From Escherichia coli (GTDB taxonomy: Bacteria > Pseudomonadota > Gammaproteobacteria > Enterobacterales > Enterobacteriaceae): a DNA stretch of 64,000 nucleotides. This document shows, piece after piece, positions 53,301-56,300 of this stretch. Within the stretch, counting starts at the first letter, position 1. The number at the start of each line of letters is the position of its first letter. A program made the position numbers. The stretch lies in NCBI RefSeq assembly GCF_041248615.1, contig NZ_CP158426.1. The stretch is one strand, 5' to 3'.

Positions 53301-56300
53301 GAATCTCAATTGTTCCCCGTCTGCGCCAGTGACGAACACGGAGAAGCACTGTTTAACCTCGCGCAGCCACACTTTCCGTTACTGAATTACAGCCGCAACT
53401 CCTACATGGGGCGATTGATTAATCGCACCCTGACGCGCCACAGTGAGTTGAGTTTCAGCACCTTTTTTGTCTCTTCGATGAGCGAGCTTTTAAAGCAGGT
53501 TGCCCTCGACGGCTGTGGGATTGCCTGGCTGCCGGAGTACGCCATCCAACAAGAAATTCGCAGCGGGCAGCTCGTTGTACTGAATCGGGAAGAACTGGTG
53601 ATCCCGATTCAGGCCTACGCATACCGGATGAATACCCGCATGAATCCAGTTGCCGAACGCTTCTGGCGTGAACTGCGCGAGCTGGAGATTGTGCTTAGCT
53701 GACATTCTCCAGCGTCGCACTACGCCAACCGCCATTATCCCAGACCAGATCAAACGTTAGCGGTTCATCGTCGTGGTACAGCATTATCTCAAGGCTGATC
53801 GCCAGCGTGTGGCAGTACGCTTCTTTCAAATTGACCTGCAACGCCGCAATCCGTGGCTCATGAAATAACAGTGCAGAACGCAGCTGACGGCAATACCAGC
53901 TCTGGAGATGTTTGTCGCTCTGGTTATGCACTTGCCACTCGGGCATGCCTGAAACAAGTAATGACGGTAATGCCGAATGAGGAGAATTAAAAAGAGTGAG
54001 GAGATCGCTGCATACCGATTTACGCAGCAATGACGTTTTATTGCCTGAAATTTCAGGTAAAACAGCCTGAAGTGATTGGCGCATCATTTTGCGCACTCCT
54101 GACGTTTAGCAACATATGCGGCTTGCCCTGAACACCGGGCACCACTGTATTGATGCTCATTTTCCATAGCCATTCCCTTTTGTTCATTACATCCATGTCA
54201 GTCTGAGACAGGCCTGAATCCTGTCAGCAAAGTATAAAACCTTACTTGCCTATGAATATCTACTGACTTTTCAGGAAAAAAGTCATGATTTGATAAAAAT
54301 CATCAAACTCAAAAAAAAACCGCTACTATATTCTGAATATTCCGAATAGTTACGTAGATGAAAATACTTGTCACCGCCGCCACTTAATTTCGGTGGGGAA
54401 TTATTTATTTCCGCATAATCAGCCATGCATTATTTGAAACAATTAGTTTGTAAATAATATAAATTGATAACATATCAAATACATCAAAAATACCATTCAC
54501 AGGCATTATTAATATAGACATCAATATAGCAACATCAAATTCCAATTAGTAATAAGATATGCTTTTAAATTGCATGCAAATAATTTTAAATGAGCGTTTT
54601 TTGATACTTTAGAGTGTTTCCCACCCTTTAATATCACTGTGTAGAGTTGATATCACTACAACAGAAACATGCATGTCATTTGTTTACTTCTCTTTTTACT
54701 ACAGAAAAATTTATCTATTTTTCTAAGCATCAGTGAAATACTCATAAAGGTAACTATTATGTCTATGCCATTAAGCAATGCCCTTCAGAGTCAAATTATT
54801 ACAGATAATCACTTCCTTCATCATCCAAAAGTCGACAATAAGTTAACACGTGAATATGAATATGCACGCATGGATACGGAAAATATCTATCTTCTGCCTC
54901 TTGCTCGTGGCAATAACCATAATTACGATGGAAAAAGTGTTGTCGAAATTAGAAAACTTAATATTAGCAAACAGTCCTGGCCATTTAATTATGTGACAGA
55001 AACATGCAGAGAATTCAATGGTATTACAACAACAGGACGTATGCTCTATCGAAACTTGAAAATCACCTCAGATTTAGACAAAATATATGGTGGTATATGT
55101 AAAAAGGCGCATGCTGCCACAGAGTTAGCGGAAGGATTACAACTAAATTTATTTATGAAGAGCCCCTCCGATCCTGTTGAGGACTATACAGTTCATGAAA
55201 TAACATTAGGCCCTGGTTGCAATGTTCCAGGTTATGCCGGAACCACGATAGGATATATTTCAACCCTTCCAGCTTCTCAGGCAAAAAGATGGACCAATGA
55301 GCAGCCAAGAATTGATATCTATATTGATCAGATAATAACTGTCTCAGGGGTGGCAAATTCTTCCGGATTTGCCGTTGCCGCATTACTTAATGCTAATATT
55401 GGAATGGGAAATGACCCAATAATTGGTATAGAAGCCTATCCCGGTACCGCGGAGATCCATGCAAAAATGGGGTATAAAGTTATCCCCGGTGATGAAAATG
55501 CGCCACTCAAACGCATGACTCTGCAACCGTCATCTCTTCCAGAACTGTTTGAATTAAAAAATGGTGAATGGAATTATATTGGTAAATAACCACTGAGAAG
55601 AATGAGTACTAATATTCAGGTTATACAGATAGTTAAACAATACCCTGTAATTTAGAAAGTAATACTCATTGCGACTTCTTAATTTAAGAAAGCGCAAGGA
55701 ACGTTTACCCTTGCGCTTATCATAATAAGTCAGGCGTCGACTTTATCCAGCGGCCATGAATCAAACAGATAGCCGTCAAAATAAATATCGTCAACGTTCG
55801 AGAATTCCAGCAGACGTTGTTTAACGTTTTCCAGATGCTGCCACATTGCCAGCTTCGCCGCACGGGCATCTTTTTTGATTAACGCGGCGAGGATCTGTTT
55901 GTGATCGCCCAACCACTCTTTGCGATACAGGCTGTCATCGAGATGGCTGTGCAATTGGATCCACATTGGATTGTTTTCCCGCCACTGCCAGGACTGACGG
56001 AATAACTCCACCAGCATGCTGTTATGCGTTGCTTCGGCAATGGCGAGATGGAACTGCATATCACCGCTTTCGCTGCTACCCGGCGCGCTGGAAGCCAGTT
56101 CACGCTCTTCCAGTTGCAATGCCTGACGCATTTTGACGATATCTTCGCGGGTAGCCTGCAAAGCGGCAAATTCCGCGATGTTACTTTCCAGTAACTGACG
56201 CGCCTGTAACAGCTCAAAAGGACCGGCATCATTGCAGACGTTGGCATCCGGACTGTCTGTGTTGTGGCTGCCTGAGCTATCAAGAACATAAATACCGGCA

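What the first reader, a model, noticed from the sequence alone, without database searches (positions are those of the whole stretch)
53695..53702. Convergent 8-bp overlap of hypT and iraD 3' ends
The stop regions of the oppositely oriented hypT (plus) and iraD (minus) overlap, so transcripts from each gene must run into the other's coding region. This allows transcriptional interference or antisense effects between an oxidative-stress regulator and an RpoS-stabilising anti-adaptor.
Basis: seen in the sequence. Interest (0 to 1): 0.2.

Follow-up and report, generated by a model that had tools for sequence, protein, structure and literature searches.

The report
hypT–iraD stop-codon overlap on a hairpin
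Two oppositely oriented E. coli genes (hypT and iraD) really do share their last 8 bases, but this is an already annotated, strain-type-specific junction left where the GimA gene block is absent, and the only unusual thing about it is a strong hairpin-forming palindrome centred on the two stop codons.

Summary
hypT (+, 52791-53702, stop TGA) and iraD (-, 54087-53695, stop TAA) share TTAGCTGA at 53695-53702. RefSeq annotates the same overlap in K-12 MG1655.

It is not a conserved regulatory design. The overlapping codons belong to non-conserved C-terminal tails of both proteins. The junction is the known GimA locus: about 90% of complete E. coli genomes have this GimA-negative overlap. In B2-type strains sampled, the genes lie 425 bp or 20 kb apart. 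E. whittamii has a different, 21-bp overlap. E. albertii has lost hypT, and another Escherichia species has lost iraD.

The new detail is a roughly 46-nt imperfect palindrome (53675-53720) centred on the overlap. It puts both stop codons in the loop of a 12-14 bp stem. It ranks among the seven strongest local folds in the 64-kb window and is stronger than about 99% of synonymous recodings. It has no U-tract. It most likely acts as a shared 3'-end hairpin that pauses, terminates or stabilises both mRNAs and so limits read-through, but no published 3'-end map covers the locus. Antisense or interference coupling remains untested. Interest is low.

The parts
52791..53702 (+). hypT (yjiE/qseD) coding sequence, 303 aa LysR-type hypochlorite-responsive regulator; stop TGA at 53700-53702
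   Evidence: ORF list. NCBIfam NF007488 scores 694 bits over 1-303/303. RefSeq annotation.
53695..54087 (-). iraD (yjiD) coding sequence, 130 aa anti-adaptor of RssB; stop TAA at 53697-53695. The conserved core ends at GGWR (residue 122); the last 8 residues, SATLENVS, are a variable tail.
   Evidence: ORF list. NCBIfam NF010726 scores 303 bits over 1-130/130. Alignment of homologues. PDB 6OD1_B.
53695..53702 (.). 8-bp tail-to-tail overlap TTAGCTGA: the iraD stop complement TTA, then GC, then the hypT stop TGA. AGCT is the centre of symmetry.
   Evidence: Sequence. The same overlap is annotated in eight further E. coli genomes and in K-12.
53675..53720 (.). Imperfect palindrome forming a stem-loop in both transcripts. 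The core stem pairs 53677-53688 (GCGAGCTGGAGA) with 53706-53718 (TCTCCAGC-G-TCGC), giving 12 bp with G53714 bulged. Three further pairs join 53690-92 to 53702-04. Both stop codons lie in the loop, and no U-tract follows on either strand.
   Evidence: Inverted repeat I2. In the iraD sense an 81-nt fold gives -34.6 kcal/mol, z = -4.5, 0 of 200 shuffles as stable. It is tied 6th-7th of the local-fold clusters among 42,634 scanned 50-nt windows. Native energy falls in the lowest 1.4% and 0.5% of synonymous recodings. The terminator scan reports no site here.
54084..54167 (-). idlP, the iraD leader peptide, overlapping the iraD start by 4 bp. It is part of the iraD transcription unit that converges on hypT.
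   Evidence: RefSeq annotation.
53703..53782 (+). First 80 nt that a hypT transcript would read beyond its stop (antisense to iraD). It is C-rich and G-poor (35% C, 20% G, 15 YC dinucleotides), making it a weak candidate Rho-loading stretch.
   Evidence: Composition computed. Inference only.

Best explanation
**What it is.** The 8-bp overlap is a real but incidental feature of one haplotype of a rearrangement-prone junction, the GimA-negative form of the yjiD/yjiE (iraD/hypT) locus. In this form the two genes abut tail to tail. Each reading frame runs past its conserved core through a short, non-conserved tail (HypT ...RELEIVLS, IraD ...SATLENVS) and stops inside the loop of a shared ~46-nt imperfect palindrome. 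Because the arms are inverted copies of one another, the two proteins end with nearly the same peptide.

**How it most likely works (inferred).** In RNA the palindrome folds into a stable 12-14 bp GC-rich hairpin on both strands. It most likely serves as the common 3'-end structure of both mRNAs: a pause or termination element of the U-tract-less, bidirectional kind described at convergent E. coli gene pairs, and/or a stem that stops 3' exonucleolytic trimming after Rho-dependent termination. It would therefore limit read-through into the partner gene rather than promote it.

**Shown:** the overlap, the palindrome, its statistical strength, its haplotype restriction and the tail variability.

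**Inferred:** the termination or stabilisation role, and the origin of the palindrome by deletion or template switching at the junction.
For: **The overlap and gene identities are real:**

**The tails are not conserved.**
- The IraD core ends at GGW(R). After that come [24 protein letters not shown] or nothing in different relatives.
- HypT is conserved to FWR(E/D)L. It then ends in [30 protein letters not shown] and other variants.

**The junction is the GimA locus, with three forms.**
- The three patterns are described in PMC2878320.
- GimA+ strain NZ_OZ038879.1 carries about 20 kb between the hypT stop and the iraD stop.
- Remnant strain HM670 has the stops 425 bp apart.
- 4,879 of 5,426 complete E. 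coli genomes carry the intact overlap junction.

**Other Escherichia differ.**
- E. whittamii has a 21-bp overlap and no hairpin.
- Strain E1V33 has a 426-bp spacer.
- E. albertii and assembly GCA_000208585.2 have lost hypT.
- Strain MOD1-EC7003 keeps only about 70 nt of iraD.

**The hairpin is strong.** It is stronger than 98.6-99.5% of synonymous recodings of the same two peptides.

**A hairpin at the iraD 3' end recurs.** In GimA+/remnant haplotypes iraD has its own 12-bp hairpin about 10 nt after its stop.

**There is a described mechanism for such elements.** Hairpin-encoding bidirectional terminators without intrinsic-terminator features, independent of Rho, are reported at convergent E. 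coli gene pairs (bioRxiv 10.1101/2022.10.23.513370).
Against: - **No 3'-end data at this locus.** Adams et al. Term-seq lists none between MG1655 4,556,900 and 4,558,999, and no Rho region.
- **No U-tract** follows the stem.
- **No compensatory covariation.** The O157:H7 lineage carries C53710A, which breaks a G-C pair with no second-site change. Another strain breaks a pair in the other arm.
- **The hairpin is not universal.** E. whittamii overlaps without any hairpin.
- **Translation may block it.** Ribosomes terminating in the loop would cover both arms, so the hairpin can form only on untranslated or post-termination RNA (inference).
- **The palindrome may be a passive scar.** It could simply reflect how the junction was made.
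Confidence: 0.6

Rival explanations
1. One reading: the overlap is a regulatory device. Convergent transcription of hypT and iraD produces RNA polymerase collisions or complementary 3' ends, so that induction of one gene represses the other, in an excludon-like or cis-antisense manner.
For: - The geometry permits it. No canonical intrinsic terminator lies at the junction.
- iraD and its leader are strongly inducible: under AZT, ytiC rises 260-fold and iraD 14-fold (PMC11228462). Many polymerases can therefore arrive at the junction.
- Head-on collisions at convergent pairs are documented in E. coli.
Against: - The arrangement is not conserved. The genes are 425 bp or 20 kb apart in B2 E. coli. 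Each gene is kept without the other in sister species.
- iraD exists only in Escherichia. In Salmonella hypT faces an unrelated convergent gene 4 bp away.
- The strong hairpin at the junction should block rather than allow read-through.
- No literature or Term-seq support was found.
Confidence: 0.12
2. The palindrome is a purely passive scar with no RNA-level function. It would be a by-product of the deletion, or of a quasi-palindrome template-switch event, that created the GimA-negative junction. It would be kept only because it now encodes the last residues of both proteins.
For: - The junction is a hotspot of independent deletions, each with different end points and each creating a new IraD tail.
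- Natural variants that weaken the stem are tolerated, including in the whole O157:H7 lineage, and there is no covariation.
- The hairpin region is not visibly more conserved than the 50-nt flanks in 5,426 genomes.
Against: - The stem is far stronger than expected from the two peptide sequences alone (lowest 0.5-1.4% of synonymous recodings).
- It ranks among the top seven local folds of a 64-kb window.
- Haplotypes without it supply a different hairpin right after the iraD stop, which suggests a 3' hairpin is needed.
Confidence: 0.25
3. The palindrome is a DNA-level protein-binding site, for example for a dimeric regulator such as HypT itself, rather than an RNA structure.
For: Only the dyad symmetry itself, CTGGAGA-N17-TCTCCAG.
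Against: - It lies at the 3' ends of both genes, far from any promoter. The scan found promoter-like sites only at 52731-52758 and 54464-54538.
- The spacing does not match the T-N11-A type LysR box (established knowledge).
- No family or literature hit supports it.
Confidence: 0.03

Closest known systems
Convergent (tail-to-tail) overlapping gene pairs of bacteria, created by movement of stop codons
   Same: Two real genes on opposite strands share a few bases at their 3' ends. The overlap lies in non-conserved C-terminal extensions. 75 such pairs were counted in the E. coli reference genome (PMC4161906).
   Different: Here the stop positions can be tied to a specific structural polymorphism (GimA absent, remnant or present) and to a palindrome that holds both stops in its loop.
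GimA locus patterns between yjiD and yjiE (GimA+, GimA remnant, GimA-) of Homeier et al. 2010
   Same: The window is the GimA- pattern. The GimA+ and remnant patterns were recovered in RefSeq genomes at the same junction.
   Different: In the passages retrieved, the paper does not mention that the GimA- pattern makes the two genes overlap. It also does not describe the palindrome, or the different IraD and HypT C-termini that go with each pattern.
Hairpin-encoding bidirectional terminators at convergent E. coli gene pairs (SEnd-seq, Ju et al. 2019; collision model, bioRxiv 10.1101/2022.10.23.513370)
   Same: A GC-rich hairpin sits at the meeting point of two convergent genes and folds in both transcripts. 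It lacks the U-tract of an intrinsic terminator.
   Different: The described elements lie between genes, and their overlapping 3' ends were mapped. Here the element is built from the coding ends of both genes, the stops are in its loop, and no 3' ends have been mapped.
Rho-independent (intrinsic) terminator
   Same: A stable GC-rich stem-loop at the end of a gene.
   Different: There is no run of T after the stem on either strand: the + strand continues ACTACGCC and the - strand continues AGTTCACG. The consensus scan does not call it.

Membership tests
Convergent overlapping gene pair | Two bona fide protein-coding genes on opposite strands | tested here: met
   Full-length equivalog matches for HypT and IraD. 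RefSeq annotation. IraD crystal construct.
Convergent overlapping gene pair | Coding sequences, stops included, share bases at their 3' ends | tested here: met
   53695-53702, TTAGCTGA.
GimA-negative pattern of the yjiD-yjiE locus | iraD (yjiD) and hypT (yjiE) are directly adjacent with no GimA-derived sequence between them | tested here: met
   Window and K-12 layout. Contrast with the GimA+ locus L084 and the remnant locus L082. Definition from PMC2878320.
Intrinsic (Rho-independent) terminator | GC-rich stem-loop | tested here: met
   12-14 bp stem, -27 kcal/mol in a 50-nt window.
Intrinsic (Rho-independent) terminator | U-rich tract immediately 3' of the stem | tested here: not met
   No T run follows the stem on either strand. 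The terminator scan reports no site at the junction. No T run of 4 or more occurs within 330 nt downstream in the hypT sense, and none within 590 nt in the iraD sense.
Bidirectional terminator of convergent gene pairs (SEnd-seq type) | Located at the junction of a convergent pair and encoding an RNA hairpin in both directions | tested here: met
   Definition as quoted.
Bidirectional terminator of convergent gene pairs (SEnd-seq type) | Mapped, overlapping 3' ends of the two transcripts at the element; termination independent of Rho | not testable with these tools
   No 3' ends or Rho regions are listed for the locus in the held Term-seq supplements. SEnd-seq tables are not held.
Excludon / cis-antisense regulatory pair | Long overlapping transcripts with reciprocal expression of the two genes | not testable with these tools
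   No strand-specific expression data were available. The supplements of PMC11228462 are not held.
Excludon / cis-antisense regulatory pair | Arrangement conserved among relatives that keep both genes | tested here: not met
   The genes are 425 bp apart in HM670, about 20 kb apart in GimA+ strains, 426 bp apart in E1V33 and overlap by 21 bp in E. whittamii.

The most novel reading that the evidence does not exclude
The palindrome built from the last codons of both genes is a functional, coding-embedded bidirectional terminator or insulator. Both stop codons sit in its loop, so its activity would depend on translation: a terminating ribosome melts it. It would have been created or sharpened by a quasi-palindrome template switch when the GimA block was lost. 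The GimA-negative majority of E. coli would then express hypT and iraD (and hence RpoS stability) with different 3'-end control from B2 strains.
Probability: 0.15. Interest if true: 0.4.

Novelty: already known. Interest (0 to 1): 0.15.

Why it matters
The overlap itself matters little. It is annotated in every RefSeq E. coli genome of this type and belongs to a common class.

Two modest points are worth keeping:

- **Strain differences at the junction.** The junction marks the GimA locus, so E. coli lineages differ in the C-terminal residues of IraD and, in remnant strains, of HypT. They also differ in what follows each gene. Anyone comparing RpoS stabilisation or hypochlorite responses between K-12-like and B2/ExPEC strains should be aware of this.
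- **A convenient test case.** The palindrome holds two stop codons in its loop. It is a compact natural case for testing whether U-tract-less hairpins at convergent junctions terminate transcription, and how translation interferes with them.

Tried and rejected
- **Published 3'-end maps.** The Adams et al. 2021 supplements were searched by gene name and by coordinate prefix and returned nothing at the locus. The TERMITe supplements also returned nothing. Supplements for Dar & Sorek 2018, the Rend-seq annotation paper, the 3'-UTR Term-seq paper and the AZT RNA-seq paper are not held. Sass et al. 2022 is not held.
- **Rfam.** An E-value scan of 52400-54800 gave only a chance snoRNA hit.
- **GimA flanked by inverted repeats**, with the palindrome as a split or rejoined pair of ends. 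Rejected: left end versus reverse-complemented right end scores 20, against a shuffle mean of 19.3.
- **Selection on the stem from population data.** Megablast identity bands for the 50-nt hairpin versus 50-nt flanks were uninformative, because the 28-nt word requirement drops variants unevenly. Nine further E. coli sequences inspected directly showed no compensatory changes.
- **IraD outside Escherichia.** The Citrobacter proteins named IraD by some sources are TssE subunits inside type VI secretion clusters, not neighbours of hypT.
- **Literature on hypT-iraD coupling.** Nothing relevant was found.

Full report
**1. The observation**

On the + strand hypT is an ORF at 52791-53702 (303 aa) ending GAG ATT GTG CTT AGC TGA. 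On the - strand iraD ends at 53695, with its stop TAA read as TTA at 53695-53697 on the + strand. Its annotated ATG is at 54087. The two coding sequences therefore share TTAGCTGA, 53695-53702.

Both ORFs match their NCBIfam equivalog models from the first to the last residue. HypT scores 694 bits over 1-303/303 and IraD scores 303 bits over 1-130/130. The IraD chain in PDB 6OD1 contains the same C-terminus.

RefSeq annotates the identical overlap in E. coli isolate 362, whose 1.6-kb locus is 100% identical to the window; the rest of the 64 kb is near-identical, with small indels. It does the same in K-12 MG1655, where iraD is 4556993-4557385 and hypT is 4557378-4558289. The overlap is real and already on record. 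The stop positions cannot be revised away.

**2. How unusual it is**

The genome annotation shows nine convergent gene pairs in the window. The other eight are separated by 46-242 bp, so this is the only overlap. The class is nevertheless common. Huvet and Stumpf counted 75 convergent overlapping pairs in the E. coli reference genome and attribute them to movement of stop codons (PMC4161906).

**3. What was not noticed: a palindrome centred on the overlap**

- An inverted repeat (53681-53692 GCTGGAGATTGT / 53702-53713 ACATTCTCCAGC) brackets the overlap.
- It extends to a 12-bp core stem, 53677-53688 paired with 53706-53718, with G53714 bulged. Three more pairs sit nearer the loop.
- Both stop codons are in the loop.
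- In the iraD sense an 81-nt segment folds at -34.6 kcal/mol (z = -4.5, 0 of 200 shuffles as stable). In the hypT sense the same stem forms, and a 60-nt segment folds at about -25 kcal/mol.
- Scanning every 50-nt window of the 64 kb on both strands (42,634 folds, mean -9.6, sd 4.3) puts the junction at -27.0. That ties it for 6th-7th among the local-fold clusters.
- With both peptide sequences held fixed and synonymous codons resampled, the native sequence is in the lowest 1.4% (hypT sense) and 0.5% (iraD sense) of folding energies.
- Because the arms are inverted copies, the two genes end almost identically: hypT GCTGGAGATTGTGCTTAGCTGA and iraD GCTGGAGAATGTCAGCTAA. The proteins end ...LEIVLS and ...LENVS.
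- No T-run follows the stem on either strand, and the consensus scan calls no terminator there.
- Rfam has nothing in the region.

**4. The tails are not conserved**

Among IraD relatives the invariant core ends at GGW(R), residue 121-122. What follows is [35 protein letters not shown] or RTMPQ, or nothing in the Citrobacter homologues. Those Citrobacter proteins are in fact TssE subunits inside type VI secretion clusters.

HypT orthologues are conserved up to FWR(E/D)L and then diverge:

- RELEIVLS in E. coli
- RELEIEPG or RELKIEPG in other Escherichia
- RGLQAAL in Salmonella
- HSLHTAP and similar in Citrobacter

**5. The junction is the GimA locus**

In 5,426 complete E. coli genomes, 4,879 carry the intact 161-nt junction. 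About 500 match only the hypT side. Two such cases were examined:

- **Strain HM670 (O2:H1):** a 372-bp PEP-binding-protein pseudogene lies between the genes, and the two stops are 425 bp apart.
- **Isolate 30348_1#195:** about 20 kb lies between the genes, carrying nhaC-ibeA-dhaR, gcl-hyi, dhaKL and ptsP.

These are the GimA remnant and GimA+ patterns that Homeier et al. described 'between yjiD and yjiE'. K-12 is GimA- (PMC2878320). In the passages retrieved, that paper does not mention the overlap or the palindrome.

In GimA+ and remnant genomes IraD ends ...HRTMPQ. Its stop is followed about 10 nt later by its own 12-bp hairpin, AACGCGATACGCGCAAGACGTATCGCGTT, shared with the convergent ptsP/pptE. 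In the GimA+ genome hypT keeps the K-12-type end through GCTGACATT, after which the sequence diverges.

No inverted repeat flanks GimA. The iraD allele of the GimA- haplotype is only 82% identical in DNA to the B2 allele, and the last 29 nt do not align at all. The flanking hypT, iadA and uxuR are 95-97% identical.

**6. Other Escherichia and other genera**

| Genome | Arrangement |
|---|---|
| E. whittamii | hypT and iraD overlap by 21 bp, with different tails (IraD ...SSIPGVSARFNL) and no hairpin |
| Escherichia sp. E1V33 | 426-bp spacer holding the GimA remnant |
| E. albertii | iraD kept; only an internal scrap of hypT remains |
| Assembly GCA_000208585.2 | iraD kept with a K-12-like tail (SATVGKVS, GTCAGCTAA retained); hypT cleanly deleted |
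| Escherichia sp. MOD1-EC7003 | hypT kept; only about 70 nt of the iraD 3' end remains |
| Salmonella, Citrobacter amalonaticus group, Pluralibacter | iadA-hypT present, no iraD |

In S. enterica subsp. diarizonae a convergent Asp/Glu-racemase-like gene ends 4 bp after hypT.

iadA-hypT is therefore ancestral. iraD is an Escherichia-specific addition. The junction has been remodelled repeatedly, each time giving IraD (and sometimes HypT) a new tail.

**7. Variation within the E. coli overlap type**

- The common G53714A change (Thr to Met in IraD) hits the bulged base and leaves the stem intact.
- O157:H7 carries C53710A, synonymous in iraD. It breaks a G-C pair and costs about 6.6 kcal/mol.
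- One strain has a hypT Leu-to-Met change that breaks a pair in the other arm.
- No compensatory change was seen, so population data neither prove nor exclude selection on the stem.

**8. Mechanism**

*Shown:* the overlap, the palindrome and its strength, the absence of a U-tract, the haplotype restriction and the non-conserved tails.

*Inferred:* the hairpin is the working 3'-end structure of both mRNAs. It resembles the hairpin-encoding, Rho-independent, U-tract-less bidirectional terminators reported at convergent E. coli gene pairs. In those, the hairpin pauses polymerases from either side and head-on plus trailing collisions release them (bioRxiv 10.1101/2022.10.23.513370).

Alternatively, or in addition, it could stop 3' trimming after Rho-dependent termination. 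The first 80 nt beyond the hypT stop are 35% C and 20% G, a weakly rut-like composition.

Haplotypes lacking this palindrome place another strong hairpin right after the iraD stop. That fits a need for such a structure.

Against: no 3' end or Rho region is listed for the locus in Term-seq data from three growth conditions. One possible reason is low expression of both genes under those conditions, but this was not tested. E. whittamii manages without a hairpin. A ribosome terminating in the loop would mask both arms.

**9.

Interference or antisense coupling is geometrically possible, and iraD transcription is strongly inducible. Under AZT, ytiC rises 260-fold, idlP 18-fold and iraD 14-fold (PMC11228462). 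Nothing found supports a regulatory link, however, and the arrangement is neither conserved nor required for keeping either gene. I rate it partly supported: the geometry is right, the function is unsupported.

**10. Verdict**

This is an ordinary, already annotated convergent overlap. The added value is its explanation as the GimA-negative junction with variable protein tails, and the strong palindrome holding both stops, whose function remains to be tested. Interest is 0.15.

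Noticed in passing
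window 52733-52777 (iadA-hypT intergenic region): This is the strongest local fold of the whole 64-kb window (-30.8 kcal/mol per 50 nt). It is an 11-bp perfect palindrome, GTCAGCCGCCC...GGGCGGCTGAC, around a 23-nt loop, with no T-run. It overlaps the only good sigma-70-like match upstream of hypT (52731-52758). It is conserved in E. albertii and in assembly GCA_000208585.2, where hypT is deleted and the element sits just downstream of iraD. It could be the iadA terminator, a hypT operator or both.
   Followed up: partly
window 53695-54660 versus L082/L084 (B2 E. coli): iraD and its leader region are hypervariable within E. coli. iraD is 82% and the leader 72% identical in DNA between the K-12-type and B2-type haplotypes, while the flanking hypT, iadA and uxuR are 95-97% identical. 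The B2 haplotype also lacks yjiC. The K-12-type iraD is about equally distant (80-82%) from the alleles of all other Escherichia examined.
   Followed up: partly
L007, L008 (Citrobacter freundii-like metagenome contigs): The closest non-Escherichia relatives of IraD (about 50% identity; some sources name them IraD) are TssE baseplate subunits. They sit inside complete T6SS clusters (VipA, VipB, Hcp, TssE, TssF, TssG). IraD therefore looks like an orphaned TssE copy confined to Escherichia.
   Followed up: partly
L003/L004 (E. albertii), L005 (GCA_000208585.2), L009 (Escherichia sp. MOD1-EC7003): There are reciprocal gene losses at the junction. E. albertii and GCA_000208585.2 keep iraD but have deleted hypT; E. 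albertii retains an internal scrap, GGCAGCCAGGCAAT. MOD1-EC7003 keeps hypT but only about 70 nt of the iraD 3' end.
   Followed up: yes
L015 (Salmonella enterica subsp. diarizonae) 3909-3914: Outside Escherichia, hypT is also packed tightly against a convergent gene. A 244-aa Asp/Glu-racemase-like ORF ends 4 bp after the hypT stop, leaving no room for an intergenic terminator. Citrobacter shows similar spacing.
   Followed up: partly
L080 (NZ_ABFU01000118.1, labelled Bacillus coahuilensis m4-4, 605 bp): This 605-bp contig encodes E. coli IraD (98.5% identical) and the last 29 residues of HypT (100%), including the overlap. It is almost certainly E. coli contamination in that assembly.
   Followed up: no
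L086, L092 (E. coli O157:H7 / RM6067W): hypT is annotated as only 855 nt in O157:H7-type genomes, against 912 nt elsewhere, which indicates a shortened N-terminus. The same lineage carries the stem-weakening C53710A change.
   Followed up: no
window about 49565-50150: kptA (RNA 2'-phosphotransferase) is annotated as a frameshifted pseudogene in the near-identical genome.
   Followed up: no
window about 20580-31200: This is an immigration-control-type region. It holds a DUF262 protein, a type I restriction-modification system (hsdR, M and S subunits), symE, a GmrSD-domain endonuclease and a truncated DUF262 pseudogene. Several of the window's strongest hairpins (11400-12230) lie in the hpa operon region instead and may be REP-like elements.
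   Followed up: no
window 54084-54660 (idlP, ytiD, ytiC leader of iraD): Published AZT RNA-seq shows a steep 5'-to-3' gradient along the iraD transcription unit: ytiC 260-fold, ytiD 33-fold, idlP 18-fold and iraD 14-fold (PMC11228462). This suggests attenuation or processing within the leader, so that fewer polymerases reach the hypT junction than initiate.
   Followed up: no
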